64,000 bases of DNA from Microthyrium microscopicum (GCA_010405405.1 MU004232.1:1383481-1447480); one strand, 5' to 3'; positions 34,029 through 61,092 are shown, numbered from the stretch's first letter. Translations and numbers: made by a program. Notes: a model not told the origin generated them from the sequence alone.

Positions 34029-35556
34029 CTAACCGGCAGTCGTGTCCATCCCTAATTCAGCATCAATCGCTTGCAGTTGCGCTATCAGGCGCTCGCGCTC
34101 GAGGAGTCGAGCTTGCCGCCGGGCACGCTCGTCTGCTTCGCTGCGTAGACTTGGATCGAGTGCTGGGTCTACTGCATTGCGCGCATTCTCGACGGCTGCT
34201 TCGGCTGCTTCAGCGGTAGCGGGAGATGGGCGACGCTCGTGGCCATTTGTTTGAGCGCCGGAGGTTGTGCCGTTGGCTTCAGAATGGGTGCGCTTGCGAC
34301 CAGGTTGGAGAGAAGGTGAGGCGTCGAAGCGTGTGGGAGAAGAGCGGAAGTTGGTAAAGTCTACTGGTGGTGGTGGGAGGGTTCGGGATTGTGGGATGGA
34401 TCCAGGTGAGCTTAGACCGTTGAGTCCTTCTTGGTGGGCTAGTTGTTGTTGGAGAGCGCCTGGATTTGGTGAATGAGAGGCTGGAATGACCCGTTTGCGG
34501 CGTTTTATTTCGCCCTTTTTCATGTCCAATGGTCGATGTCGTCCATGGAGTTTGAAGTATAGACCTGAATACATTAGTACAGTCACATCTTAGGTGATTT
34601 GAATATTACTTACCACATGCATTGCATATGGTGTGACCCTCATCATCTCTTCGCCATAATGGAGTGATCATGGTCCCACAGTTCTGACATGCTGGCATAC
34701 CGGCACCATGCGGAGTTACTGGATAATGCATCTGACTTGTAGGTTGTTGCATGACAGCACTAGCCTCTTGCGCAGCAGCAGCAGCGGCTTGTTGTGTTTT
34801 TGCCATACGATTATTGTATGCCGGGCAGCCATCGCAACCTGCATGCCCACCAGTACCATTACATCGACCATCACCGGGACAGCTTCCCGAGTTTGTAATC
34901 TCTGGAGCAGTGTATCCAGGTGATGGATTATTTGTCGGGGAGTTTTCATCCCCATTTGCGCCAGTTGTTCCTCGCTTTAAGTTTGTTGGTCGAGCTTGAT
35001 TCCGTGCTTTTTGATATAGACCGCATGCATTGCAGATGGTTTCTCCTAGAGGCGAACGACGCCATAACGGTGTACGATTAGTTCCACAATTTGTGCAGGT
35101 CTGCCCAGCTGCTGACGGGGCTCGAGGAGAAGGATTTGTTAAGCGAGGTGATGGATCGGGTTGTTGAGCTAAAGATGGAGAGGCGGCCATTATTTGTTGG
35201 AGCGCATTATGATGTGATGATGCAGAAGATGCGGGGGAATGTGGTGCTGGCGCAGGCTGTACAGCTGTGTCGAGGTTGGAAGTTGTATTTATGCTTGGGG
35301 TAACAGTAGTGGTATGATACGGGTGAGGTTGCTCTGTCGCAGTACTCGTTGACAAAGGGTAGGCCGAGGAATCGGGATTAGATGCAGCAGCAGACGCGCT
35401 GGATGAGGATCGCTTGGCATCGGAAAGCATCTTCAAGTTGGCAGCAGACTCTAGATCTTCTTTGCTATGTTGTGTCATGGGCGACATTTGTGGCGGTTCA
35501 GCATGTCGAAGAGGAAGCTTGCCTTCAGATGGCGAATATGTGGCTGAAGTGGTCAT
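34029..35556 (-). CDS. sreA: GATA-type iron/siderophore repressor (SreA/SRE/Urbs1 family)
   Basis: Two C-x2-C-x17-C-x2-C fingers (CTNC..TPLWRR..CNAC; CQNC..TPLWRR..CNAC/GLYFKLHG) flanking the Cys-rich CPGDGRCNGTGG..CDGCPAYNNR motif. Intron ~34566-34612; C-terminal coiled coil. Confidence 0.95.
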
Positions 35557-35794
35557 GATGATGGCAGCGACAGCTTAGTGTTATAGAACCATGCGGGGCG
35601 AGGATATAAGGTGAGCGAGGAGTATGGGGAGGATGCGATGTAGCGATGCAAAGCTGCGGTGTGTGGTGGTTGATAGCGAAGTAGGCGAGGTAGTAGGCAA
35701 CAGGGGTGTGATGGGAGGGGGTCGTTTTGCAGGACTTTAGCACCAGACAAGTCCAAAGACGCGGGAAAGATGGAGGCGCTGATTAAAGTTGATT

Positions 35795-36174: not shown

Positions 36175-37352
36175 GAATCTATGAATGAGCGTCTGCAAAT
36201 GTCAACCACCACCCAGTCCAGCGAGTTGCTCCTTCTAGTATGAACGGATATCTATAAAAGAAAGTCACCACCATAGCGCATACCCCATATCCGTTCCTGA
36301 ATAGATCTAACCATCCAATATCAACTCCGACCAATGCGTCCAAGCTTCCTCCAAAAGCCTACGTCCACCAGGTACAAAATATATATTCTCCCCGCCGCTT
36401 ATTTTGGAGAGATCTGGGTCAATGTCCCAGAGATAATCATTATAGCCCTATCAGATCAACAACCTGGTTGACCGCCAAAGTGCTACCATAGATCCCACTA
36501 TCAATCAGAAATCTATCTACATCAGTTACTCCACGAACGCGTCATCCCGTTAATCCAGACTCGTCACCTCTAATTCCGCGCAAGTAGCAACCATATCAAT
36601 GTTAAATTGACTATTCGTGGCCCAAATCACGCAAATTACATGTGTCTTGCAACTTCGCTGTATGGGTACATACCGCTACTACAGGACGTGTTTGGAGAAG
36701 CATAATGATAATTCTATGTCTCTATGCAAATCATAATTCAACCTATAACATTTGTAGTCGAATCATATAGGTTCGCCGTAGCCATACAACTATTGAAGTA
36801 TCCCATACCATAGGCAGATAAATGTCAAATGCGCAGAACCCAGATTGTTCCTCATAAATTCCTCTAGCATTCGCGGCTCCAAGACCGAATAAATTGGAAA
36901 ACATCCTGCCAAGACCTTCACTCCCATGGCCCTACGTCTTCATCAAGATTGCGTGGCCTCCTCAAAACCACCAACACCAGCCCGACACCGCGTAAACATT
37001 GAATTGCAGTAACAAGAGCGGCAGCTCATTGCCCAAAGAGAGTAGAAAGCCAATCACGTCAACTGATATTGAAACGGTTCGCTGTCCCTAAAAGCCATAT
37101 GACTTTACACAAAAAATATAATCGTCTCTACAAAGACATACTGAACCAGACCCGAAAGTTCCCTTCCCAAGTCTATTTACCTCCCAAAAACACCACCCAG
37201 CTTCAGTGCGATCGAACCTAGGCCCGTGATTATCAAAAAAGAACTGTGCTATACAATCTCCCGCCCTGGCCTATGCGCTTTCTGCACTACTACCCCATGT
37301 ACTCGAACACTCTTTTCTGCTACTGATGATATTCGGCGATGAAGGTAACTGC

Positions 37353-38163
37353 TTATACCTGCTCTTGTCCCCATCCTGCGTCCGCATCCCTACATGTCAT
37401 TAGCTTTTGTCATATTGACCCATTTTTGTGTAAGTATGTATTTACCGCATGTTGGCTGGTGGTTCAATGGACGGCACGAATTCGAGAACTATGTATGCGA
37501 TGCCGACGAACATGACGAGACTGCCTGGTACCCATCGATACCAGTGTTCTTCGACGATCAATGCGCCTACGAAGAAATAGACTATGTGTTTGTTAGTAAA
37601 TGCTTCGGGGATTGCGTTTATGGCTGTGAGTTTATGGGGCTATATGGGTGACGTACAGAGACCGCGGCCGAGGAAGGAGAACATGAAGGACGCATAGCGC
37701 GAGACTTGTGGTGGAATCTGGAACTCGAGAAGACCGGTAGCTGGAGACTTGTTAGCTGGCTTGTTATAAGGGATGGAGATTCATGGTACGAACCAGCTCC
37801 GAAGATGATTAAGTAGACGCCGATGGTGATGTTATGTCTGTTGTTGCGCATTAGTATCGAGTTGTCAAAACTTGCGCATCGAGTCTCGAGTGCCTGCTCG
37901 CATAGCCTTCTCTGCCAAATTCAACCAGCTGTACTTGGAGTAGCTGATAGATACCAGCAGAAAAGGCGCGCGATACAGCATCTCAAAGCTCGATGCGCCC
38001 AGCCGTGAGCAACTTACGGTCCAAAACCGCCAATAAACTGCGTTATACCACCCAACAGCATAAACACACCCGTCACCAAATTAACAATCCGACTAAATAC
38101 ACCATTAGCACTACCCTCTACTCAAACTGCCAAACCAACGTACAAGATCTCCGTAAAGTCCAT
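37353..38163 (-). CDS. TVP15: Golgi membrane protein, COPI-associated (Tvp15 family)
   Basis: Multi-exon model MDFTEIF/RIVNLVTGVFMLLGGITQF..NITIGVYLIIFG..EFQIPPQVSRYASFMFSFLGRG..LEFVPSIEPPANM/RDADAGWGQEQV*. Confidence 0.92.
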
Positions 38164-38184
38164 GATTTCTGTCGAGCTCCGATA

Positions 38185-38226
38185 GCTTGCCTTGCTTGCC
38201 TTGCTTGCCTTGCTTGTCTAGCTTGT
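38185..38226 (+). repeat. 9-bp tandem repeat (GCTTGCCTT), about 4 copies, just upstream of the TVP15 ATG
   Basis: Read directly; the last copies are degenerate. Confidence 0.85.
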
Positions 38227-39103
38227 ATGGTCCCGATGACGTGTATTCTAAACCGACGAGTTGCAAAACCACAAACTGTAGCGCGATGACGAGGTACGAT
38301 GAAGAACGGTTCGATGTTGGAGAAAGGTTGATGGATGCCTGAAAATGTCGAAATGTTGTTGGGATTTAGCAAAAGGGGATGCCTACGGGAAAGCAGGCAA
38401 GCTTGTGATGTCGTTTTGGCTGGGATTGGTGAGAGGAAAAGTGGCCAATTGGATGGGGAGGTTGGAGCTTGGGATTTCGAGAAAGCTTGGCTGGACGGCG
38501 CCTGGTCAGTGTGGCTCCAAGGGTTAGGTCTTGTCCGTTTTTTGGATGCTTGATGTTGGTTTGGTATAGCTTGGGTATCAGGTCTCCGTACATGGAACTT
38601 GATATTGAATTTTTCTGTTGCGATTTTGCGTATTGGAGCCTACTTCCGGCTTTGAAGCACTTTGAAAACCATTAACTTGTGTGGTTGGTGGACAAAGAAA
38701 GCTATGGCTTGTACTCCTTGCTTCGTGCCTTTGTACACAAAGGTATTCACAACAACAAAGGACAATAGTGGTAACTTTGAAATGATCTCGACAAAGATAT
38801 TCACTATATGATATGTAAGTTAGAATGATAGAAATGCTGCTATTATATCTATTTGGAAATCCATCCTTCACGGGGCTTCCCATTAAAATTACATCTAGTA
38901 TGTACACAAAAAACCCGTCATGCCCGTCGTGCTTTTTACTTTCGCTTGCTGTATGCTTTTGAGATGACAAACAAAAAAAACAAAAAGTTAAACGCCGTCA
39001 ACTTTTCTAATATATGAATGAGTATTATATCGTCCTAAAATGGTGTCCTTGCGCGTTTAGTCAATGCTTGTTTTGCCAGTATGCTGATATGCTGGTGAAT
39101 GCT

Positions 39104-42100
39104 TTATTTCATGCGTTGGTCCAGTGATACGCGCACCATGTCCATAACAAATGGCTGTGGTGCGCTTGCGAACATGTAGCCTGTGTTTGTGTGGCGGAGT
39201 TCTGATATGAGGCGTGATGAGCCCGTGAGATATCCACCGGAGAGTCCGAAAGTGTGGTAGAATGAGCCATATGCGAGGACCTCGGTGTGAGGGAGTTTAT
39301 TGAGATGGGAGTAGTTGGAGGCGACGGGAATGATGGATGGCGAGTGGAGGAAGATGGTCATGGGGGCTTTGGTCATGATTTTCTTGGAGTCATGGGCGAA
39401 TTGGCGGTGGCTTTCTTGGTCGGGCAGGTCCATGAAGACGGTGATATAAGTCTTCTTGTGCGATTGAAGCTCTTGAATGATTTGTACTAAGTGAGTGTTG
39501 TCTCTGTAGCGGATGACACTCTTGTCGGCGAGATTGAGACCATCGTGGAGAGCGTAGGGAAGCGATTTTCCTATCAGCATGCAGTGATTCTCGTAGTTCA
39601 AGAATGGTCGGCATAGAGCGGCAACTGTGGAGGATACTCCAATAGATGCATCTGCGAATGTCATGGCACTTTGCATTCCCAAGCATTTTGCCAGTAAGGC
39701 TTCTGTTGCGAGATGTGGTGGGAATGTTCCAGCCATACCACGACTGCTACCAGAGGCGAGACCGTATATTTTCCTTGATGCCTGGCCAGCTTCGATTACG
39801 GCGTAATGGTTAAGTTGATGTTTGGAAGATGCTACGTTCTGCTGGATCAGGTCTTCAATGTGCTGATATGTCATCACAGCTTCTTCTCCCTCGTCGTCTC
39901 CAAGATCGGATGGGGAGCGATATTTGAAAGCACGAAGCGTCAAGTTGACTGTCAAGTTGCTCTTCTTTGCGAGTCCGAGTCGACGCGTTGAACGAATAAT
40001 AATCTTCAAGAGTTCATCAATCTCGCGATCGCTAAAGTCTGCCGTGAGATACACCACAACTCGGCTTTCCCAAAACTCGACGGCTGGACTTGTCACAGGC
40101 GTCGCAATAACTCCCCATTGACGTAGCACGTAAGAGAGCTTGGCTGCAACAGTTGGTCGACCACAATGAATTGGCATGATCGGTGAGCCAGTTTCGCCAT
40201 ACGTAAAGATGCCAAATCGAGTAAGTTCTCGTCGGAAGTATCGAGAGATCTCTGACAGTCGATGGAGCTTCTTGTATGTGCGTGTAGGTTGACCGAGGAC
40301 CCACAGGGTTTGCACCATAGCTGGCAAAGATAGAGGCTCTTCACCTTGAATTCGAAGCTTTTGTAGGTGTGCGCGAATTCGCTCACCATACTCTGTTTTA
40401 CCGCATATGAGACCTCCAGCCGCTCCTAATGAATTAGCAAGAGACGCTGTTCGAATGTCGATAAGATCCCAAGGCACTGGAATTTCGGTTGGCTCATAGT
40501 TCCACCGTTCTAGACAGCCTCGCCCACTTTGTCCAAGAGATAGGAAAGAGTGCGACTCGTTGCAGAAGAGTGTATAGTGAAACTCCTTCTTTAGGCGATG
40601 AAGGTCGTCCAGAGGAGGTAGTGTACCGTGAAAACTGTTAAGGAGGTCAGTATATCACTCAGCGGTCGCATATTTTGCTTGATTCTTACCTGTACATGCC
40701 CTCAATGGCAACGACTGTGTGACCCCATTTCGCGCTGGCGCTTTTCAAAATTCGCTCCAAATCTTCCATATCATTGTGCTTAAACGTGTGAACTGCGCCA
40801 GCCTGTCCGCGAGCAATGCCAGCAAACATTGATGAATGGCACTTTTCGTCCACGAGAAACATGGTAGAGGTATCCGCAAGAGCAGCGAGAGCCGCAAAAT
40901 TGGCTCCATATCCCGAACTCATGGTATAGCAGAAGTTTGCGCCAAAAAATCGACCAATTACCGCGTTGGTCGCGTTCTCCATAACCTCTACGCCTTGAGC
41001 AGCGGAGAAGGGTAGCTTGTCCATGACCAATTGTTGCAACTCTTCAGCTTTGGGTATCGTCTTATAAAGTCCGGCATAGTTGTAAGAGGAGGCATTGAGC
41101 ACCGTGGAAGCGGGCCCATCTGAGTTCTTCACACGAACTCTTCCCAAGCTTTGAGTCTGAAGCACGCGCTCATTCTTTCCCCACCAAGTGAAGAGTGGCT
41201 CCACGTGCGCCAATGCAAATTCGCCCTTTTTGCTTGTAGGTTTGTAAAGTTCGCGCTTCTCTTTGTTTGACACTCGAGCTTTGATAGACTGCAGTCTTGC
41301 CATTTCACGGATTCGATCGTAAGCGGATGGACGTTGAGGGGGCTTGAGATCTACTTCTCCTTCATCGTACGGTATCGGATCTGGGGACGAACTTCGTGCA
41401 GAGTGCGAATGCTTCGGTGAATGTCGTGCGCTTGCAGGTGCCGAGCCGCGATTTGGAGTCATGATACCCATGGACATTCTATCTGAAGTCGTTCCAATGC
41501 TAAAGTTTGCTACAGATCCATTTCGAGATGCAAAGCCAGACGCGATTCTCGATTTTTTCTTGAATGCGCTAAGATCTGTCATAGAACCGTTCTTAGAGGC
41601 AAAGCCAGACGCAACCCTTGATTTATGTCGAAGATCCCCTGTGGAGCCATTTCGTGACGCCAGTCCAGAGGCTATCCTGGGATTCTTGGGCGCATGAAGA
41701 TTCTCCCAGGAGCCGTTTCTAGAGCCAAATACCGACATAATTCGACTTTTCGGCTTGAAGCTGAGATCTTCTTGTGATCCTCTCCGAGAATGGAATCCAG
41801 AGGCAGCCCCAGAGTGTATTCTGGCGTTGAATTTGAATCCCAAGTCGGTTTGGGACCCATTTTTCGGCGTCATGAAACCAGAAGCAATCTGCCTTTTAGT
41901 TTTGGGTCGAGTATCGCGAATTGAGCCATTCCTGGAGATGAGACCCTTTGGTATTCTGTGGACGTGATTTGCTGAAAGATCTGTTGAGGAAGCTGTGGCG
42001 GTCCATGGCGCAGCACTAGGACTGATCCCGATCTCCGGTTTTACGCTGAGATCTCCTACCGAGGCTGTAAACTTTGGGGTTGAGCTAGACTGAAAGCTGT

Positions 42101-42963
42101 ACGGAGACTTGAAGTCTTGTATCCCAAGCTGTGGAGGATTCGCGGAGATCGTGGAGACTGCAGAGGCTCTCGAGTTATTTTGCTCCATAGAAGACGCGCC
42201 AAGTGGAAAGTCATAATTGGACACTGCAGAAACGACTCTGGAACCATTATGGTCTGAGGTTGCGCCATATGGAAGATTGTTAGAAGAAACCTGGTATGGT
42301 TGCTGTACGCTGAGTTCGTTGTTAAAAGACGGCGCGTAAGATGCCGTACTAGCGGAGGAGTGATATTGTTGATGTACGCTGAGGTCGGTATTTGATGATG
42401 GCGCGTATGGAGTTGTACTAGTAGAAGAATGATATTGTTGATGTGTGCTAAGATCTGTTGGTGAAGAAGGGGCATAAGGAAGAGTATTCGCTGAGGGTTG
42501 GTAGGCATGGTTCGACGGCGGTCTAATTTCTTGATCAGTTGATGACGCATTATATGGCCCATTGAAGCCTCCGTAGATGTTGGGCTGCTGAAAGTTCAGC
42601 TCTGTGGGTGAAGGAGCATATGGCCCAGAGTTCGTTGGGGGTCGGTACGCGGTATATCTTTGATCGGATTGTTTCTGTTGAGGTTGCGGCAAAGTATATT
42701 CTAACGAAGAACCGTTTGAGGGCGCCTAATCGCGAATATGGATCAGAATGGGCACAAGACATGCTATGTCAGGATCTTACCATTTCATCGTCCATTCCCC
42801 AGCTTACTTCCCGCGGTGATTGCGGCGATGATGGACTCATTGCATGCATGTAAATGCTCTTCTTGTCTCTAGGTGAAGATGAGTAGTCGAGATATGAGTT
42901 GTGATCGAGTCCAAGAGATTCGCCTTCCCAGTCCTGTGGAAGGACAACTTGAGGAATCGACAT
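39104..42963 (-). CDS. Serine palmitoyltransferase-like (alpha-oxoamine synthase fold) protein with two tandem PLP-fold domains and a long low-complexity N-terminus
   Basis: Exons ~42963-42782, 42725-40690, 40636-39104. Domain 1: LNASSYNYAG, SSGYGAN, FKHNDMEDLERIL, IEGMYS, NESHSFLSLGQSGRG, SLANSLGAAGG. Domain 2: YGLASGSSRGMAGTFPPHL and FGLSGGYLTGS..GYMFAS. Confidence 0.85.
41440..41945 (-). repeat. About 8 imperfect coding repeats, consensus SRIASGFASRNGSxxDL
   Basis: Visible in the translation of ORF 40686-42692; ~60-nt period. Confidence 0.85.
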
Positions 42964-45698
42964 TTGATAGAACTACTGGCGTCGGTTTCCAAGGGACTGA
43001 AAAGGTTCGAAAGCTGCGTTCCTAGTCAAATGTGTGGTACAGATGACGAACAGCAACTCACCCGTTCCCAGGGGTTCAGAGGCGATGGAACTTGAAGTGG
43101 AATTGTTCGCGAAGTAAAAATCAAAGCTCCAAAAATCAACACAAGACACGACTAAGTTTAAAGTTTTAACTCGAGAAGAAAAGCCACCAGCAGCTGGGGC
43201 TGAATAGTACACGGAGCGGTCGTCAGTCGCGATATTTTGACGACTACAGAGCATTTTCACGACATGACCGTGCACAGCAAAAACGAAATCATGGGCTAGA
43301 TTTGGTACTCGCCGAGTCGGCGCGCGGTGCAAGGGCGAATCATCGCCAGGGAGGATAAAAAGGAGTCGACTCCACGTGTATTATTGAAGTGGCTTAGGGG
43401 GCGGCCGTCCGCGGTTGGGCCTTGGTCCCCTTGAAGCTCGATAAATACGAATTGGGCGGGAAACTTGTTTGCTGAGAACAGTGCTAAAGTGGAACAGTCT
43501 TCAATCGACCGTGGTCAGTTTGGCCTAGGCAAGAACCCTGATTGAACCATTGGAGCATTGGCCAGCCATAAGGCTTTGAGCTATGCCTAAAAGACGAGTT
43601 GAAATAGCATAAATTTGGTGTGGCTCATGTTAAGGGGTCAACCCAAACCAAGTTGCTTTGGTAATGTAGAGTAGAGTACCAACAAATACCCACTCACCAA
43701 AAAGCTGCAGCAGGCTTGTAACAAGGACTGCGAAGCGATGTATTATGCAGTGATGCACCAACTATTGGGGATTTGAGGCGCGAAATACTGTTGGAACTTG
43801 GTCTTTGGACGCGAAGCCAACGCCGCGAACCTGGAAAGGAGGAAATAAATGGAACACATCCCTGACTTTGCAGTTTGGAGCTGACAGCCAGCAAAAGCCA
43901 ACAAGTGCCAGACCTCCACGTTTGTTCCCCAACCGCTTGTCACGACTCTGCGGCAATGCGCCGGACCCACATGGGCGTCTCAATAAAGGTCTCATCATCC
44001 AGCTGCCAACCAGTAAATCAGGGAAGGATATGTTGGTCTTCGACTCTACAGTGTACACCGTAGCTTGGCTGCGTTCAACCTGTTTGATGGCAGGTACTAC
44101 TAAGGAATATACCGTACTTGCCACTTGGTCTGCGCAGCGCCGTTGCAGCTTGTAACATCCGAAAGCAAAAAACAAGCTTGGTATGAGCCCATCAAGTCCT
44201 AATTTGAGGAACGCCGCATTCACAAAGTACACCTTTAGAGTATGGAAAAGTCCGGATAGCACGGAGTTGAAGTAGGAGGTAGCATCTTTGCTGACCATCG
44301 CTACAGCTTAAGGGGCCCGCCCGTACCCGTATTTTTACCCGCTCAAGATGCGGCTCTTCGCTCACCAGAATTAACCTCCACCAGTTAATGCTACAAGCGA
44401 CCCATGGATTTCCTGGGATTTTCTGGGGCGGATCTGCGGATCGAATGAATTGAGATTGCGCACCCTTGTCCTGCGTCAGCAGCTTCTCTCCAACTCTATT
44501 CTTACACCTTGCAGCGATCGCTAATGCAGTCTTCCACTACAGTAAGTTATTGAAAGGAGTAGGCATATGTCAAGACAACGTAGAGAATTGCCATCTGATA
44601 GAATTCGGAAATAAACCTCCAAAGTTCTCAGAGAGCACGATCAAAATTGGGTCTGTCTTGATCCTTCGAAAAAACGAATTATTGCCATTTCCACGCTCTC
44701 GGGGCTTGCGCCTTTCTCCAATGTTGACGCCGCTGGCCGTAGGGCCGCTCCCTCCGACTTCTACCGTACTACGGCAGATCTTCTGGAAGAAAAAGCTTAG
44801 CGCACGCGGTTCAAAGATGAAGTGTGGTTGGAAAAGACATGACATCTGGAGCTTACTCGGAAGAACAAAGATCGACATGTTTTACGATGTCAAAATCCCA
44901 AAATAGTTCCGTTTCATTTCAGCCAAGCAGCTAACGATTGTGGCACAAATATTAAATTTAACATTTTTTGGAAAAAGTGTACAAATGGTCATAAGTTTTA
45001 CGCCACCGTTGACGGTCGAGTACAACTCTACGGTAAAATGACACTTCGTTTATTCATACTTTTATATGTCCCCATATAAGTAAACAGTTTACTTCATTTC
45101 GTGCGACTAAGTCCAAGGAATATTAGGTATACGGATACTAGAAGCACAACTTCACACAGCTGTGTGTTCTTTATTGATCCTTCTCTTCGGTACTTCGCTC
45201 CAGAATTTGAGTTGGTCTCAAGGACCGACACGACAATCCAATACGCATTTCACGCTGTGCTTATTCATCGCTTCAGCTGTGGGGGAGGTTCTTCTGGATA
45301 TACTTCTTTTCTTGTAATTACTGCAGTTTGCGACCGGAGATGTCTTCATCGCATTCAGAAGGCCTCACCTGGGTTGGCGTGCTGAATCTCGAAGCTGGGG
45401 TGCTTGATACAACGACAGGAGAGTCGGGAGATGCGTAACGAATGAAAGATCAATTTGAGCTTGAGTAAAGAGAAGTACTCTGTAGGAGGTGATGGATCGA
45501 AATCCTTTCGAGCTCAAAAAGGATATTTTTATCTAGAGCGCGCCTTGGGACGAGTATCACAGTCTGGTGTTTGCTATTTCTCAAAGTCGCATGGCATGCC
45601 AATGAGTCTTACAATCAGTTTGACCGTACTGTAGCTTCGAGGGGAGTACAAGGCCGTTAAGAACATTGCTTGACCAGCGCACGGCTTCCCGTCTCAAC

Positions 45699-47504
45699 TC
45701 AGCTAACTTTGCGTTTGGATAAGCGGCCTGGCATACCACCTTTAGGCTTCGCTGCAGCCCGTAGAATCTGATAGCATCGATGACCCTCAATAGTCTGTCT
45801 CTCTGTGCCAGGTCTTCCATCTTCAAACTCACTCACAGTATCTATTGGTGTCCAAGTCTCAGTCTTGACTCCATCAATCTCGGACACAAAGTCGAAGCCT
45901 CTGACTGCAAGCGCTAGAATCACACGGCTTTCGATCATGGCAAGCTCTTGGCCAATACAGTTTCTTGGTCCTCGCTCAAATGGTCTCCAGGCCTCCTTTC
46001 CTGCTGGTGTGAATAACTTTGCTTCTGGGAAGGGCGTTTCGGCTTGGATGAAGCGTTCTGGTATGAAGTGATGTGGATCTGGGAAGAATTCTTCATTGCG
46101 TGACACAAAGTGCACTGCGGGCCAGACATGCCAGCCACTTATGGGGAATTTGCGACCGCTTTTGGGGTCTGTGATGAATACAATCTTTGATGGATCAGAA
46201 GCTGCGGGTATGTGACGCAGAGTGGAAGCTGGTGGAAACATTCGGAGTGCTTCCTTTATGATAGCATTTCCATATTCAAGTTTGTTGACGATGTGGTGGT
46301 CTTTCTTGATCATCTCTGCTATCGCGGCTGGACTCGTCCCAACGCCGAAGACGGTGTCGAGTTCTTTGCAAAACTTGTTGTAAACCGATGGCAGCAAGTG
46401 GAGCATATAATAGATATATGACAGCGTGGAGGCGGTGGTGTCGTGACCAGCAAAGATGAACGTTTTCATGCTGTCCACGATATCTGCTCGAGTTCGAGCA
46501 TCAACCATGACCTTTGCACCTCCAGCCTTCCCCGATTCGCTCAGCTCTTTCTCATAGCCGTCCAGTGCAAGATCAACAACCGACTTCTTACGATTCTTTG
46601 CACTGCCCGAGCTTGCAGTCTTACTGGCTTCCCGAGCTTGGATCTTTCTTTCTAGCTCTTTAGCAATCAAACCGTTCAATTTGCGTTCATTCTTCCAAAG
46701 CCGATAAGGGCGAAAAAGATCTAAGCCAGCCCATGGATAAATAGATGTAACATCTGGCATCAAACCGATTCTTGTGCGGAAGGTATCAACGATTGGATGT
46801 GTTGCCTTTTGACTGTTAAAGTCCGAGTCCAAGACGACTTTGCCAATAATATCGATTGTCAATTTTGTGCAAACGTCCTCCAATTCAAAAAGCTCTCCAG
46901 TTTCTGCCTTCTTGTTCAGAATGTCGAGGAACACCATGCTTGAGTCGACAATGTACGGGACCATGGTCATCAGATGACTTGCACTAAAGCCAGGATTGAA
47001 CATGGATCGTAGCCTCTTCCAGTGACTTCCTTCTGAGCTCACCATATTGAGCTTCCCGAGGAATCTATCAAGGAAGTCTGTCTCGAGCGACGATTTGGGC
47101 AAAGACTGCGTTGTGGTGATATATTGGCTGATAAGTTCGGGGTCGGACATGAACAGAAACCGCGGGCCCAATGGCCACATATCGAGATAGAACAGTGGCC
47201 CTGTCTTCCATCTTTTGGCGATGTAGTGAGGCCAATTGTGCATATGAGTGGTAGGCGGGAAAAGCTTCATGCATTCACCAGCGACGGGCATGTTTCCCCA
47301 GATGAAAGAGCGGCCATCTGGTCCTCGCGGTTGAGGCTTTGAGCGATAGTTAGTACATTGGGTATAACAAGTAGACAATCTAGCAGAAGGAGCACTTCAG
47401 CGACTTACCAGATCTTTACTTTCATTGCGTCTTTTGGTAAAGTAAGCGAGGCCATAAATGACTGCAGCAATACCCACGAGCCAGATCGAAGAGTATGGTA
47501 GCAT
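45699..47504 (-). CDS. Cytochrome P450 monooxygenase
   Basis: Membrane-anchor exon 47504-47409, intron 47337-47408; AGHDTT, EALR, PERF and heme motif FERGPRNCIG. Confidence 0.96.
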
Positions 47505-50425: not shown

Positions 50426-50979
50426 ACATTGTACATTATTACTATAACTGTCCAAATACAACAACTCCTCTTTTCCATTTATTGAGCCGGCCGAAATATG
50501 TGGCAACGTGAGATCTCGGAAGGACTTGCATATGTTGTTGTGGGAGGCAGAATATTGCCAATCTTGATGCGCACAACCGTTGTGCTACTCAAGCAATCCG
50601 ATCTAACAATTATTAGAAGAAGCGGGAGGGTAGTAATGGAAAGATACAGTGACAGAAAGACATACAACCCAATGCCTGACTTACATACGTGGCTCTGGCT
50701 ACTTACATGATATTCTCAGACTGGCCATTGCAAGATGTTTGTTGCCTACATGGACATGCACTCCACCGACGGCTATCAAACGGGAACATACACTATCGAG
50801 CATGACAGTCTATACAAGCCGTTGCAGTGATCCGTTGCCATGAGTGCACTGTGAGCAGGCGCGCCGTTTAGTGCGCCAATTAATCAACGCAGATCTCTCA
50901 ATTTCAAATCTTCATCAGACTCTGTGCAAGAAAACCAATCCGACTTTCTAACTACATTCAGTGCGTTATACCACTGACA

Positions 50980-52981
50980 ATGCAGCCCTTAGGAAACCCC
51001 AATGTGTCCGATCCGGTTGATCAGTCCAACGAGTCGGATCAAGTCAATCAGCCCAACGAGTCCAGTCAAGTCGATCAGCCCAACGAGTCCAGTCAAGTCG
51101 ATCAACCTGATAAGCCCGACAAAGCCGGTCAGCCCGATGAGCCCGACTTCCCTGTCGGCGATACTGGCAGAGGTCTGAGCAAGATATTGCGGAAGCTCAA
51201 AGAAGACATCAACTGCGGCTGGGACGAAGCCACCTATGCCATCGGCGGAAGCGTCAAAGTCAAAGCTGAGCCAGGTCCAAAAGTCTGTCCTCCGATTGTT
51301 ATTCGATGGGACACCTCAAATCCTACCAGACTGGGGCCTCCCAAAGTCTCTCTCCCACTTGATGCTTCCTTGTCTGAGAGCTTTCAGAAGCTGGTTCACG
51401 AGTGTCAGCCGGCTACCTTTGCGAAAGAAGGCGAGGAGGTGTATAATGAAGAGTATCGTAAGGCTGGAAAGCTAGATGAGACTGCTTTCTCTACGAACTT
51501 TTGCCCGTATTCGCTGGGTATCGTTGATACAATTGCTCAGGCGCTGCTGCCAACGATGCTCGACGCGGGTCTTGTGAAGGAGAAGGCGCGTGGAGTCAGA
51601 GCGGAGCTGTACAAACTCAATGTAAGAACTCCATTCGCAGTTGTCCAGTAGTCTTAGAGCACGCTCACTGAATGACCAGATCTATTCTGGTCCATCCGGA
51701 AAGTTCAAGGCCCATGTTGATACTCCACGAGCTCAGAGCCAATTCGGATCTCTGGTAGTTTGCTTGCCGTATGGCCACGAAGGTAGGATACTCCATCGCA
51801 TTCATCACTTTGAATAAATCAGAGCTTATAACATTACAGGTGGCGCCTTGGTTGTGCGTAACAAGAAAGGAAGCGCAACGACCTTCGACTGGGGATCTTT
51901 GCCAACCGACTCCATTCAGTGGGCTGCGTTCTACAGCGACTGTGAACACGAGGTACTGGAGGTCAATTCTGGCCATCGTGTGACCCTCACGTACAATCTC
52001 TATGTTGCGGCCGGACTTGGAATGCTCGCCGGGCAGAGCTTTGCCTTCGATGCGAAGCAAGTTCCGCTATATCACACTCTCCTGAAGATCACGCAGAAGC
52101 GGAACTTTTGGCAGAAGGGCAAGTAGCTAATACCGCCTGGATCTTCCATTGCTAACGTACTGGATATTTTAGGTGTTTGGATTGGAGTCAATTGCACTCA
52201 CTCTTATGCCCACACGGCCAACCCCAAGGATCATCTCCTGCCCTTCTCCCTCAAAGGCTTTGACTTCATCCTCTATGAAGTCTTCCGTGCTCTCGGTCTC
52301 AAGCCCAAGGCCGTCCCTCTTCTGCATGATAGTCGCTATGACTACGATGACGACGACGAAGACGAATACTGCGACGATTTTGACTGGCCCCGGTATGACG
52401 CATGGCCTCAAGATACTCTGGGAGAGCGTTTCCAGAGCACCGTAGTCGATCGTGAGGGAGTTTACGAGGGCGGCGATTTGGACGAGCGCGACATGTGGGG
52501 ACAAACCTGGATGCGTCGTGTTGCTTGGCTGGATGGAAATCCGAAGCGATACAAGGAGAAAGCTTTGATGTTCATGGCGGTAAGTTTAATGCTTGACAAA
52601 GCTTTGGGCTGAATACTGAAGCACAAACAGTATGGAAATGATGTTGGCTCGCTTGAGATTATGTACTCCAGTGCTGCAATTGTTGCTTGGCTGCCTCCAA
52701 CACAGCTAGATTCCGATTCCGAGAATACGGAAGTGTCGTCAGAGGAAGCATATTACGATGAGGACGAGGAGGACCAGTACGACGAAGAAGAAGAATCAGA
52801 TGAGAACGTGAATGGATCTGACGAGGAAGATGTCAAGGGTGAAGCGCTGGAGAAGGCACCAAATGGAGCAAGTGACGAAGGTCCCGAGACTGAAGTCAAG
52901 GCCAACGAACAGACAACGCCAGTCCTTGACAGCGGCCACAATAAGATCCAGGGTGTGAAGAACGAATTTGACGCAAAATGA
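50980..52981 (+). CDS. 2-oxoglutarate/Fe(II)-dependent dioxygenase (P4H-like fungal family) with acidic tail
   Basis: YKLN/IYSGPSGKFKAHVDTPR (HxD), FGSLVVCLP, WAAFYSDCEHEV, GHRVTLTYNL. Introns ~51622-51680, ~51784-51839, 52119-52172 (GC-AG), 52580-52630. Confidence 0.92.
51016..51147 (+). repeat. 27-bp coding tandem repeat (VDQPNESSQ-like), about 4-5 copies
   Basis: GTCGATCAGCCCAACGAGTCCAGTCAA and variants in tandem. Confidence 0.85.
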
Positions 52982-57415: not shown

Positions 57416-58059
57416 GATAGCTTTAGGCTTTCGTTACTCCAAACCGAGAAACAATTGCAGACAAGGGAGGACAAAGTTGACCGGGATATGGATGGTGGAC
57501 ATCGATTAGGTTCAACTTCCAAAGCTCAACACCAAATCTGGTGCACGGACCTTCAATATCTGATGGATATCGCTGCTTCTCTCCAACTTCACACGTCTAA
57601 CCGTATGACATTTACATCCCAAAGTCTTCTTACGAACTGCTGTCCGCTTGAATGGATCTATCAGCCATAATCTCTGTTCTTTCTTTAGCACAGTTGTCTA
57701 ATATCTCCAACGGATCAGGCTCCAAGGGATTACTATTTGGGCGAACTCTCCTTGATTGCGCGTCTCAGCTCGTAGCCATGGGTTCATTTAACAACGGATT
57801 TCGATCATATATGCCAGCAGCACGAGGTGAGAGTTTCAGTATGATCAGGAAACCTCAACGGCTATTCAGGCCATTTTGCCATGACAGTGATAGTCTCCAG
57901 TTTCTTAGTACTAAAGCACTGATATATAGCGGCCCTCCCAAGTATCTTTACAGAATAGAATCATACAATCGCCATCAATTTAGTGCTTTGCTTCAATTCC
58001 TTGTATCTGCTTCCAAGCTTCTTTCTTCTTTACCCATCCTTGCTATCTAGCGATTCCTC

Positions 58060-61000
58060 ATGGCTTCATCAATTCGACAAACCCTACTGCTTTTAGCAGC
58101 CTATGTTGCTACCGTTCGCGCAGCTGGCTCTGGTATAAAATCTAAGGTTCTATCTGATACAAACGATTTGCCTTTGGCAGAACTTGCCTCCCCGAATCGA
58201 TTTGCGAGGAATGTCGCCCTTGATCGTCGACATGAAGCAACTGTTCCAGAGTCGACCGTATATGCATTGACAACTGAATTGCCTGTGACAGTGACCACTA
58301 TCAACAGCCTCGGATTTTCAAGAGTTTACGTCACCAGTACTCAAATCATCACAACCATCACCAGCGCACTTGCGGTCCCAATCGCTACCGATGGCGCGTT
58401 CCATGCAGTGCATCAAAATGCGCGACGAGAAGCAGTGGAGGGTCACCATCCTGGAAGTTCGGAACCTTATATGGGCGGCAATGGATTCCCCGATGCTCCA
58501 GGTTATGGTGAACCAGGCAATTGGCCTAATTCTGGGCCTTGGTATGGCCCACCAGGCCATCCTCCAGCTTACGGACCACCTTCGCCCGAGGACTGCGATA
58601 CTTCCATGATCGCGAGTTCTGCGCAATCTTTGTCTACATTGTTTCCAACTTTGTCATCATCGCTGAATGTCGAATCCACGTCAAGCGCGGAATCAACGAC
58701 TTCAATCATCAAGCCAATCTCGAGTACTGTCTCAATTGTGAGTATCAAAAGCAGTTCATCCGAGCCACCAACCGAACTGCCTACTACAACCGCAAGTTCG
58801 ACAACATTATCTGTTTCGGCATCCTTTTCGGAGACACAAAGCTCTTCTACATCATCTACTACAACATCATCAAACCCAGAGACCATTATAAGCTCGTCCT
58901 CATCTGATAGCTCATCTTCAACTACTACAAGTGCCTCGTCAACAAACTCTGTTCCCAGTTCAATTAGTACTACGGATCTCTCATCATCGTCAACAAGCTC
59001 AGAGCTCAGTACTTCGATAAGATCATCCCAAGCTAGTACAATCCCTACTACAACCTTGTCAAACTCATCCTCCGTTGTGTTCTCCACAAGCTCCTCCAGT
59101 TCTACAATTTCAGTGTCTGAACTACCACCCACTACCCTTTCACCGACGATTTCAACTACTAGCAGCAGCAGCGGGTCTAGCTCCTCGACAGTATCTTCTC
59201 AGAATAGCTCTTCTACGCTGGAGTCATCGTCTACAGCAAACGCAATTGGTAATACTTCTTCAACCTCCATCACCCCTTCCCTTTCCCCGTCGCCCAGCCC
59301 ATCACCATCCTCAACTACATCTTTTTCCATATTACCATCGATCTCATCAGCAGATGAATCATCCACAAACTCTTCCGTTGCATCTTCTGCGACGTCTTTC
59401 CAATCGTCATCTACACTCTTCCCAATCCCTACCTCCTCTGCTTCCCCCTCTACATCTTTTTTTACATCATCGTCGACATCATCAACAGAGGAATCATCGA
59501 CGCTTTCTTCCTTTGTATCTTCTGCGTCGGCTTTTCAGTCATCATCTACACTCTTCCCAATCCCTACCTCTTCTGCTTCCTCATCCACATCATCTTCTAT
59601 GTCATCGTCGATCTCATCAACAGAAGAATCATCGACGCTTTCTTCCGTTGCATCTTCGGCGTCGTCTCTTCAATCTTCATCCACACTCTTCCCAATCCCT
59701 ACCTCCTCTGGTTCCTCATCTACATCTTCCATATCATCGTCGATCTCATCAACAGAGGAATCATCCACACTCTCTTCCGTTGTATCTTCTGCGTCGTCTC
59801 TTCAATCGTCATCCACACTCTTCCCAATTCCTACCTCCACTGCTTCACTATTGGACCCATCTAACACTACTTCATCTATCCCATTCTCAACCTTCTCTGC
59901 CGACCCTTCACAGTCTTCATCCCTCTTGTTATCATCAGCCAGCTCCTCTACCATTACCTTTGCATCGTCTTCCACACTTTTCCCAATTTTGTCATCAAGC
60001 TCTACCTTTTCAGGGTTTGCAATCACTTCGACTCCCTCAACGGCTGGCTCTTTCGATTCCTCCTCGACGAAATTCCCAATACCTTCCCCTAGTCTTTCTT
60101 TCAATTCGTCTTCCACCTTGTTCCCTATTCCCTCTTCCTCTACAGACACATCTACACTTTCCACAACTTCAACTACCAATTCGATATTCCAGTCTTCTGA
60201 GACTACTTTCCCCATTTCAACAGCGAATTCCAGCGCTTCTCTCAATTCATCCTTGACTCAATCTCCCTTTGTCTCATCTAGCACCATATTTGACGTGTCT
60301 TCAAGCCGCCTTCCCAATTCTTCTTCGGTTTCCAGTAGCAGCCTTTCCTTCGAATCCTCCAGCACAGTCTTCCCTATAATCACATCTACTTCATTCCACA
60401 GCACTTCATTCCAATCTTCTTCCACAGAGTTTTCTAACCTGCCAATAGCATCTAGTTCGTCATCTGTCGGGCCAGTTTCAACAACAGCTTCATCGTTCCC
60501 GGAAACCTCGCAATCCTCCTCTGTCACAACATCCAGCTCAACGTCAAGCGAGCAAACCTTTGGCTCATCATCTACATTGTTTGATACGACTACCTCTACA
60601 GCCTCGGCAGTATCATCATCTTCGTTGTCTTCCACAATCTCGACTACTTTTGTCACGGAGACATCTAGTACCATTTCTTTTGTTTCCTCGGACACTATAT
60701 TTCCAAATCCAACAACGACGCTTTATTCATCTCTAGAATCGATTACAATTCCTACTTCAACAACTGAATCATTCGACTCTTCCTCGACCATGTTTCAGCC
60801 CAATTCAACTTCTTCCTTCAACTCATCTTCGACTACTTTCCCTACGACATTAGTGCTGTCGTTCAACTCATCGTCAACGATTTTCGAAACAAGTTCGCCA
60901 GCTTCAGTACAAGTCTTGACCGTAGAAGTCATTCCTGCAGGAACTGCTTACCGAAGCATTCCACCAGACGACACCGTCTCAGCTGCGACCCCTGTGTACA

Positions 61001-61092
61001 CTGGGCCTGCTTCTAACAATTCAGCCCGTACTATGAGCCTCAATAAAGGGCTCGCAGGATTATTTTTGGTGGCCTTCATGCTGATTCTTTGA
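58060..61092 (+). CDS. Secreted Ser/Thr-rich mucin-like protein, probably GPI-anchored in the cell wall
   Basis: 1010-aa ORF with signal-peptide-like N-terminus, very S/T-rich body and a hydrophobic C-terminus (GLAGLFLVAFMLIL) preceded by small residues. Confidence 0.88.
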   Translation: MASSIRQTLLLLAAYVATVRAAGSGIKSKVLSDTNDLPLAELASPNRFARNVALDRRHEATVPESTVYALTTELPVTVTTINSLGFSRVYVTSTQIITTITSALAVPIATDGAFHAVHQNARREAVEGHHPGSSEPYMGGNGFPDAPGYGEPGNWPNSGPWYGPPGHPPAYGPPSPEDCDTSMIASSAQSLSTLFPTLSSSLNVESTSSAESTTSIIKPISSTVSIVSIKSSSSEPPTELPTTTASSTTLSVSASFSETQSSSTSSTTTSSNPETIISSSSSDSSSSTTTSASSTNSVPSSISTTDLSSSSTSSELSTSIRSSQASTIPTTTLSNSSSVVFSTSSSSSTISVSELPPTTLSPTISTTSSSSGSSSSTVSSQNSSSTLESSSTANAIGNTSSTSITPSLSPSPSPSPSSTTSFSILPSISSADESSTNSSVASSATSFQSSSTLFPIPTSSASPSTSFFTSSSTSSTEESSTLSSFVSSASAFQSSSTLFPIPTSSASSSTSSSMSSSISSTEESSTLSSVASSASSLQSSSTLFPIPTSSGSSSTSSISSSISSTEESSTLSSVVSSASSLQSSSTLFPIPTSTASLLDPSNTTSSIPFSTFSADPSQSSSLLLSSASSSTITFASSSTLFPILSSSSTFSGFAITSTPSTAGSFDSSSTKFPIPSPSLSFNSSSTLFPIPSSSTDTSTLSTTSTTNSIFQSSETTFPISTANSSASLNSSLTQSPFVSSSTIFDVSSSRLPNSSSVSSSSLSFESSSTVFPIITSTSFHSTSFQSSSTEFSNLPIASSSSSVGPVSTTASSFPETSQSSSVTTSSSTSSEQTFGSSSTLFDTTTSTASAVSSSSLSSTISTTFVTETSSTISFVSSDTIFPNPTTTLYSSLESITIPTSTTESFDSSSTMFQPNSTSSFNSSSTTFPTTLVLSFNSSSTIFETSSPASVQVLTVEVIPAGTAYRSIPPDDTVSAATPVYTGPASNNSARTMSLNKGLAGLFLVAFMLIL
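59338..59840 (+). repeat. Four ~117-nt coding tandem repeats (ISSTEESSTLSSVASSASSLQSSSTLFPIPTS)
   Basis: ACACTCTTCCCAATCCCTACCTCC-like unit recurs at ~59413, 59548, 59683 and 59815 (period about 132-135 nt including spacers). Confidence 0.85.

What the first reader, a model, noticed from the sequence alone, without database searches (positions are those of the whole stretch)
39104..41160. Single-chain double-domain SPT-like protein lacking both key PLP residues: candidate pseudoenzyme or regulator
Seen: one gene encodes an Lcb2-like domain followed by a second, more degenerate domain of the same fold (YGLASGSSRGMAGTFPPHL resembles the YGxGxCGxRGFYGTxDxH segment of Lcb1/Lcb2). In domain 1 the DEAH motif reads NESH and the T[FL]xKS[FL]G motif reads SLANSLG (AAT at 40433-40435); domain 2 reads SFYHTFG, also without Lys. 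Known: eukaryotic SPT is an Lcb1/Lcb2 heterodimer with the Schiff-base Lys in Lcb2, and a natural fusion is known from coccolithovirus. Inference: this is a fused SPT paralogue that cannot form the PLP aldimine, yet the ~1,240-codon frame is intact, which suggests a retained non-catalytic role or a different chemistry.
Basis: partly seen in the sequence, partly recalled or inferred. Interest (0 to 1): 0.7.

Follow-up and report, generated by a model that had tools for sequence, protein, structure and literature searches.

The report
Catalytically dead Fum8-type fungal protein
This fungal gene encodes a relative of the enzyme that joins an amino acid to a fatty chain in fumonisin-type compounds; it keeps the enzyme's shape and is transcribed, but has lost three residues the reaction needs and gained a long tail of likely phosphorylation sites, so it is probably a dead enzyme reused for another, untested job.

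Summary
The three-exon gene (42963-39104, minus strand) encodes 1,249 aa, and a spliced contig matches it with no differences. The two-domain layout is not new: it is the known Fum8/ALT4-type fusion of Lcb2- and Lcb1-like halves, and a Lys-free second half is normal there. The dead first half is what is unusual. It changes 6 of 15 conserved active-site columns but 1 of 60 others, and models at pLDDT 92.5. No PKS was found on its contig; the genome has normal LCB1, LCB2 and ORM. A unique 520-aa Ser/Pro-rich tail carries five RxxS repeats whose differences are mostly silent. Best reading: an orphaned pseudoenzyme kept for its fold, probably as a lipid-binding or scaffold module. Limits: one sequence only, no dN/dS, no tree, function untested.

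The parts
39065..43004 (-). Span of the spliced transcript contig (3,831 nt, both introns skipped)
   Evidence: run X5 record 3, 0 other letters; the run's RNA label is a guess, the two skipped GT..AG introns support it
42781..42963 (-). Exon 1, codons 1-61; in-frame stop four codons upstream of the ATG
42726..42780 (-). Intron 1, 55 nt, GT..AG
40690..42725 (-). Exon 2: most of the N-terminal tail and the first half of domain 1, in one open frame
40635..40689 (-). Intron 2, 55 nt, inside the EGMYS motif; many relatives' fragments begin at the matching place
39104..40634 (-). Exon 3: second half of domain 1, linker, domain 2, stop
41346..42963 (-). N-terminal low-complexity tail, residues 1-521 (97 Ser and 47 Pro in the first 520; 17 RxxS/T motifs); no relative found
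42292..42498 (-). Three in-frame 69-nt repeats, 61-72% identical to the reference copy
41511..41897 (-). Five basic Ser-rich units of the RIASGFASRNGS type (residues 338-466); differences between copies mostly silent
   Evidence: codons counted by hand
39959..41345 (-). Domain 1, complete Lcb2-like alpha-oxoamine synthase fold, residues 522-965
40836..40838 (-). His691, PLP-stacking His, kept (30 of 30 relatives)
40550..40561 (-). NESH: Asp lost (N765; Asp in 39 of 40), Ala lost (S767; Ala in 36 of 40), His768 kept
40433..40438 (-). A806 (Ser in 39 of 43) and N807 (Schiff-base Lys in 43 of 43)
40055..40057 (-). V933, at the carboxylate-binding Arg column (Arg in 41 of 42; ThAOS Arg366, human SPTLC2 position 509)
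39107..39886 (-). Domain 2, shortened Lcb1-like half, residues 990-1249
39713..39766 (-). Loop that the second half lends to the first half's pocket (YGLASGSSRGMAGTFPPH); R1038 kept, family Trp lost (G1039; Trp in 35 of 41)
   Evidence: role from the homodimer geometry described in PMC6148460
39245..39265 (-). SFYHTFG, vestigial second site without Lys, as in the family

Best explanation
An orphaned Fum8/ALT4-type fused alpha-oxoamine synthase that has become a pseudoenzyme. Shown: the gene is whole, transcribed and spliced; the two halves keep the fold; the Lys, Asp and Arg needed for aldimine formation, electron withdrawal and substrate positioning are gone, while structural positions are kept; no PKS was found on its contig; a long basic Ser-rich tail has been added in frame. 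Inferred: the halves still pack as an internal pseudo-dimer, selection now acts on the fold and the tail, and the protein does not condense amino acids with acyl chains. Most likely working mode (about one in three, given a pseudoenzyme): the interface pocket binds an acyl-CoA or long-chain amine without turnover, and the tail is phosphorylated by AGC-type kinases, so the protein buffers or reports sphingoid or acyl-CoA levels. A plain scaffold or anchor for the tail is about as likely.
For: Of 37 columns at least 95% conserved among 44 relatives (under 70% identical to each other), only D765, K807 and R933 are changed. Their roles: Lys265, Asp231 and Arg390 of S. paucimobilis SPT (PMC6148460, passages); the Arg column maps to ThAOS Arg366 (counted by hand). 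6 of 15 conserved active-site columns are changed against 1 of 60 others, Fisher p 1.5e-4; 3 of 12 against 0 of 25 at the stricter cut, p 0.028. Relatives change 0-3 of the active-site set and 0-9 of the others. V933, F741 and G1039 each need two base changes from the family residue, so the site has been free for some time. AF2 pLDDT 92.5, pTM 0.93 over both halves. Spliced contig with 0 differences. Tail repeats: 21 silent against 8 amino-acid-changing codon differences in 42 codons over three pairs (by hand). 0 of 17 ketosynthase matches and 0 of 5 PKS dehydratase matches lie on contig C3. Normal LCB2 (with Lys), LCB1 and ORM lie elsewhere.
Against: It is a singleton: cluster of 1 member, nearest relatives 41-46% identical, none with the Lys loss or the tail. 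No dN/dS and no tree could be made (timed out, script machine lost). The active-site set was written from recalled SPT roles after I had seen the loss list, so the p-values are indicative only; the relatives were scored against columns that included themselves, which lowers their counts a little. The repeat windows were picked for their conserved motif, and selection on the tail may predate its joining to this gene. No evidence that protein is made or binds anything. The added losses A806, S767 and A1229 may weaken PLP binding enough to leave the pocket empty.
Confidence: 0.65

Rival explanations
1. Early decay. The gene lost its PKS cluster, is now useless, and is drifting towards a pseudogene while still transcribed.
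For: All relatives that cover the column keep the Lys (43 of 43). Decay of such cluster genes, including the aminotransferase, is reported in Fusarium (PMC7376913, passages). An open frame is not rare under short neutral change: 0.5-18% of 3,000 runs per setting. No PKS on the contig.
Against: Neutral change would hit conserved columns evenly; 40% of active-site columns but 1 of 60 others changed, and that one is Phe to Tyr. Correct splicing of both introns.
Confidence: 0.13
2. Lys-free PLP chemistry. PLP sits non-covalently, forms an aldimine directly with an amine, and supports a slow decarboxylation, exchange or breakdown that needs no base.
For: H691, H768, N670, G666-Y667, S693, S740 and R1038 are kept. 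SPT K265A was crystallised with a PLP-myriocin adduct in decarboxylated form (PMC6148460, passages; 4bmk). The Asp-to-Asn change alone occurs, with the Lys kept, in two Colletotrichum species.
Against: Asp, Arg, the Ser before the Lys and the Thr/Ser at 1229 are lost as well. No new Lys appears in the active-site loops among the 39 Lys of the core (by alignment only; K689 is shared with 9 relatives). No paper on a Lys-free member was seen in the listings.
Confidence: 0.1
3. Dominant-negative regulator of the host SPT: one half swaps onto Lcb1 or Lcb2, or it titrates Orm.
For: Precedent: a truncated plant LCB2b (FBR41) binds LCB1 and disrupts the LCB1-LCB2a pair (PMC6920163, section 8). The model aligns with human SPTLC2 from residue 62 on, including its N-terminal part (7k0n_B). 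The genome has LCB1, LCB2 and ORM.
Against: The dimer face is probably filled by its own second half (pTM 0.93; inferred, coordinates not seen). It is only about 24-28% identical to the genome's own AOS genes in local matches, and descends from the Fum8 branch.
Confidence: 0.08
4. Artefact of assembly or gene model (wrong codons, or two genes merged).
For: The tail has no relative, and merged models do occur among the hits (P0002, P0003).
Against: Tail and domain 1 share one 679-codon open frame; one spliced contig covers the whole CDS with 0 differences, and a DNA contig covers it in one piece (that run may be the genome's source).
Confidence: 0.02

Closest known systems
Fum8 (fumonisin) and ALT4 (AAL-toxin) alpha-oxoamine synthases
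   Same: Two AOS halves in one chain, second half shortened and without Lys; 26% identity over 697 columns to an Aspergillus protein named fum8 and 27% over 697 to Alternaria ALT4. PMC7376913 (passages) calls Fum8 a fusion of Lcb1- and Lcb2-like subunits.
   Different: They keep Asp, Lys and Arg; Fum8 works with a clustered PKS (PMC11796371 and PMC13612406, passages). This copy lacks the three residues, has no PKS on its contig and carries a 520-aa tail.
Uncharacterised Fum8-like clade (Colletotrichum, Thozetella, Cladophialophora, Setomelanomma, Friedmanniomyces, Mollisia and unnamed records)
   Same: Nearest relatives, 35-46% identity over the core, with the same motifs and domain ends.
   Different: Lys in 43 of 43, Asp in 39 of 40, Arg in 41 of 42; about 720-850 aa with no long tail. 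Their gene neighbourhoods could not be fetched.
Eukaryotic SPT (Lcb1/Lcb2) and the coccolithovirus single-chain SPT
   Same: Same fold; Lcb2-like half first, Lcb1-like half second, one site at the interface (PMC6148460, passages and section 8). Best PDB sequence hit is yeast Lcb2, E 1.2e-25.
   Different: The viral chain keeps the Lys in its first half and complements yeast. Here neither half has it, the second half lacks the small domain, and the genome has separate normal LCB1 and LCB2.
S. paucimobilis SPT K265A (PDB 4bmk)
   Same: Inactive Lys-less AOS fold that holds a PLP-amine adduct.
   Different: An engineered single change with Asp and Arg intact; this protein has lost those too.

Membership tests
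Active alpha-oxoamine synthases | PLP fold type I, AOS subfamily | tested here: met
   Domain 1 Z 40.7, rmsd 2.9, 389 aligned to 7v58_B; domain 2 TM-score about 0.72; PF00155
Active alpha-oxoamine synthases | Schiff-base Lys | tested here: not met
   N807; Lys in 43 of 43 relatives; domain 2 has His1200 at that column
Active alpha-oxoamine synthases | Asp at the pyridine nitrogen | tested here: not met
   N765; Asp in 39 of 40
Active alpha-oxoamine synthases | Carboxylate-binding Arg (SpSPT Arg390, ThAOS Arg366) | tested here: not met
   V933; Arg in 41 of 42
Active alpha-oxoamine synthases | Stacking His and 3'-O His | tested here: met
   H691 and H768 kept
Active alpha-oxoamine synthases | A substitute Lys in the pocket | tested here: inconclusive
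   None in the active-site loops by alignment; model coordinates could not be inspected
Active alpha-oxoamine synthases | PLP binding and condensation activity | not testable with these tools
   needs purified protein
Fum8/ALT4-type fused synthases | Lcb2-like half followed by a shortened Lys-free half, similar along both | tested here: met
Fum8/ALT4-type fused synthases | Catalytic first half | tested here: not met
Fum8/ALT4-type fused synthases | Clustered with a reducing PKS | tested here: not met
   0 of 17 KS and 0 of 5 DH matches on contig C3 (counts are lower bounds); no PKS among 33 window ORFs or proteins scanned
Fum8/ALT4-type fused synthases | Short-chain reductase in the cluster | tested here: inconclusive
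   none among the ORFs scanned, but short exons were not all scanned
Fum8/ALT4-type fused synthases | Placement inside the clade on a tree | not tested
   timed out and one search failed; placement rests on identities only
Housekeeping SPT (Lcb1/Lcb2) | Being the genome's SPT | tested here: not met
   separate LCB2 with TFTKSFG and an LCB1-like gene on contig C9
Pseudoenzymes | Catalytic residues lost, fold kept, gene expressed | tested here: met
   expression shown at RNA level only
Pseudoenzymes | No activity and a shown non-catalytic function | not testable with these tools
   needs assay and knockout

The most novel reading that the evidence does not exclude
A secondary-metabolite synthase recycled as a kinase-controlled sphingolipid sensor or trap: a single-chain SPT fold, dead in both halves, that still binds acyl-CoA or long-chain amines (own sphingoid bases or competitors' sphinganine-analogue compounds), possibly through PLP held without a lysine, and signals through a tail of repeated RxxS sites. 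It would be a natural fully dead alpha-oxoamine synthase with a function, which I did not find described.
Probability: 0.2. Interest if true: 0.75.

Novelty: new variant of a known kind. Interest (0 to 1): 0.45.

Why it matters
The fused architecture is known, but a natural member dead in both halves was not seen among 44 relatives or in the paper listings searched. It shows a clean pseudoenzyme signature in a PLP family whose only familiar dead partner, Lcb1, works by completing an active site. If the protein is made and has a phenotype, it offers a test of what an SPT fold does without chemistry, and an example of an orphaned cluster gene being reused rather than lost. Databases label it a PLP-dependent transferase, which is probably wrong. 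Interest is held down because it is one sequence, with no function and no clade.

Tried and rejected
Tree: IQ-TREE on 50 sequences timed out and the script machine was then lost, so there is no tree or branch-length test. dN/dS: no relative close enough and no fungal DNA collection available. Complex of the core with the genome's Orm (main exon only, no N-terminus; my alignment was not used): score 0.00, 'no answer'; it is no evidence either way. Runs: no RNA holder on record among 7 listed; X6 and X7 gave only short identical pieces at depth 2-5 and are not used; contig depths are not used to rank expression. Tail relatives: only itself among 2,994 candidates of 686-2,186 aa (shorter proteins not searched), only itself in the own genome, no usable Atlas hit. 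A weak zf-C2H2_3 hit in the tail is below its cut-off with 0 stretches and was dropped. Search of proteins of 894-2,550 aa found 5 hits among 7,999 scored, none with a similar tail. The residue-to-coordinate table was off by one base and is replaced. Literature: no description of this protein or of a Lys-less Fum8 relative in the listings (titles and abstract starts only; most subscription papers are not held); one search found nothing relevant. Supplements of PMC7376913: 6 of 8 files could not be searched, among them the table of clusters in other genera, which may list relatives and their neighbours. Earlier scan notes: none by sequence or words; 2 by place on other pieces. The intact-frame argument was tested and found weak.

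Full report
Gene. The window is fungal DNA with introns. The feature is a minus-strand gene of three exons, 42963-42781, 42725-40690 and 40634-39104, which translate exactly to database protein P0001, 1,249 aa; its source names it a PLP-dependent transferase of Microthyrium microscopicum. One 3,831-nt contig of run X5 spans 39065-43004, skips both 55-nt GT..AG introns and has no other letters. The run's RNA label is a guess, but the skipped introns support it.

Anatomy. Residues 1-521 are low in complexity (97 Ser, 47 Pro in the first 520). Residues 522-965 form a complete alpha-oxoamine synthase (AOS) domain: the 728-aa core models at pLDDT 92.5 and pTM 0.93 and aligns with KBL, SPT and AONS chains at Z 33-41 in the 50 rows shown. 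Residues 990-1249, folded alone (pLDDT 93.4), match the same family at TM-score 0.68-0.74 but end before the small C-terminal domain. That the halves pack as an internal pseudo-dimer is inferred from the pTM and from the motifs: domain 2 keeps the loop and the YMF segment that a partner subunit lends to the site, and domain 1 has lost its own copies of them. I could not inspect coordinates.

Family. Twenty other proteins at E below 1e-20 among 7,999 scored are 35-46% identical over the core, mostly from Colletotrichum, two named FUM8. The representative search gave 2,271 hits at E up to 0.001, of which 150 were listed; they include Alternaria ALT4 and a cluster with an Aspergillus protein named fum8, 27% and 26% identical over 697 columns. 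PMC7376913 (passages) states that Fum8 is probably a fusion of Lcb1- and Lcb2-like subunits; PMC11796371 and PMC13612406 (passages) describe Fum8 as condensing the polyketide with alanine. So the fusion is known, and a second half without Lys is the family norm.

What is lost. I aligned the core with 53 relatives chosen by hand from the 171 other proteins then held (two-domain Fum8-type proteins and longer fragments; canonical SPT fusions, bacterial AOS and short fragments were left out) and reduced them to 44 under 70% identity. Of 37 columns at least 95% conserved, P0001 changes three: D765N (Asp 39 of 40), K807N (Lys 43 of 43), R933V (Arg 41 of 42). Of 75 columns at least 85% conserved it changes seven: those three, A767S, S806A, W1039G and F760Y. 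PMC6148460 (passages) gives Lys265 as the aldimine Lys, Asp231 as the pyridine partner and Arg390 as needed after aldimine formation. The V933 column is ThAOS Arg366 (PMC10230504, one passage; numbering counted by hand). H691, H768, N670, G666-Y667 and R1038 are kept. No new Lys appears in the active-site loops (alignment only).

Decay or selection. Overall retention is 68 of 75, within the relatives' range of 0.85-1.00 but below most close ones. The losses are concentrated: 6 of 15 active-site columns against 1 of 60 others (p 1.5e-4), and 3 of 12 against 0 of 25 at the stricter cut (p 0.028). I wrote the active-site list from recalled SPT roles after seeing the losses, so these values are indicative. 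Relatives lose 0-3 active-site columns, never the Lys, and 0-9 others. Single partial losses occur elsewhere: Asp to Asn with Lys kept in Colletotrichum sublineola and C. eremochloae, Arg to Cys in P0120. No sequence shares the Lys loss, and P0001 is alone in its 90% cluster. No tree or dN/dS was obtained.

The tail. It lies in the same open frame as domain 1 and has no relative. It holds 17 RxxS/T motifs for 27 Arg (about 6.5 expected from composition, by hand; the repeats are not independent) and five units of the RIASGFASRNGS type. Three units compared with the last differ at 21 silent and 8 amino-acid-changing codons out of 42 (by hand), the reverse of neutral expectation, though the windows were chosen for the motif. 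PMC7124472 (passages) gives RRxS/T for PKA and Sch9 and RxRxxS/T for Ypk1; the tail has one RRGS and several KxRxxS, a loose fit. That Ypk1 controls SPT through Orm phosphorylation is recalled and comes from no call.

Context. None of 17 ketosynthase and 5 PKS dehydratase matches lies on this contig (lower bounds). Neighbours are a GATA factor, a P450, an F-box protein, PI31, an AAA ATPase and a sugar transporter. The genome has LCB2 with its Lys motif, an LCB1-like gene, two other AOS genes and one ORM, and no second Fum8-type gene. The gene is therefore neither the cell's SPT nor a clustered synthase. Whether its closest relatives sit in PKS clusters is unknown.

Verdict. Most likely (0.65) an orphaned Fum8-type synthase turned pseudoenzyme, kept for its fold and joined to a phosphorylatable tail; ligand binding or scaffolding is inferred, not shown. 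Rivals: early decay 0.13, Lys-free PLP chemistry 0.10 (SPT K265A holds a PLP-myriocin adduct), dominant-negative SPT regulator 0.08 (precedent in PMC6920163, abstract and section 8), artefact 0.02. It descends from the Fum8 family but fails membership as an active synthase. New variant of a known kind; interest 0.45. The claim that it is undescribed rests on the listings; six supplements of PMC7376913 could not be read.

Noticed in passing
P0039: A chytrid, Cladochytrium replicatum, has a member 38% identical to the core; the other named members seen are filamentous ascomycetes. Possible horizontal transfer or contamination.
   Followed up: no
P0015, P0209, P0210: Colletotrichum sublineola and C. 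eremochloae share the Asp-to-Asn change with the Lys and Arg kept: a separate, fixed change that may alter or weaken the chemistry.
   Followed up: partly
P0059, P0120: Other partly degenerate members: P0059, an unnamed fragment with changed motifs but the Lys kept; P0120 with Cys at the Arg column.
   Followed up: no
P0070, P0072, P0075, P0080, P0088, P0100, P0102, P0110, P0112; longer P0083, P0093, P0103, P0149: Many natural single-chain Lcb2-Lcb1 fusions with canonical motifs, some 1,300-1,400 aa with extra parts; such fusions seem commoner than the one viral example. Sources mostly not looked up.
   Followed up: no
P0002, P0003: Two relatives end in unrelated sequence (P0003 with PF13671); probably merged gene models.
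   Followed up: no
window 38600-38717: A separate 1,119-nt contig of run X5 ends at 38717, 350 nt past the stop of the gene studied; ORFs at 38118-38671 have no Pfam match. A short CTTGC-type tandem array lies at 38185-38225.
   Followed up: no
window 37150-38130: Exon pieces on the minus strand resemble a TVP15/COPI-associated membrane protein (recalled; no call confirms it).
   Followed up: no
window 34029-35574: GATA factor with two zinc fingers and a Cys-rich spacer; looks like the iron regulator SreA (recalled).
   Followed up: no
window 45699-47396: Cytochrome P450, 2.7 kb upstream of the gene; the only neighbour that could be a cluster remnant. Subfamily not determined.
   Followed up: no
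window 58051-61092: 1,013-codon ORF without any Pfam match, in a region of strong negative GC skew.
   Followed up: no
window 50884-52981: Multi-exon gene with a weak 2OG-Fe(II) oxygenase match below cut-off and a QVDQPNES-type repeat near its start.
   Followed up: no
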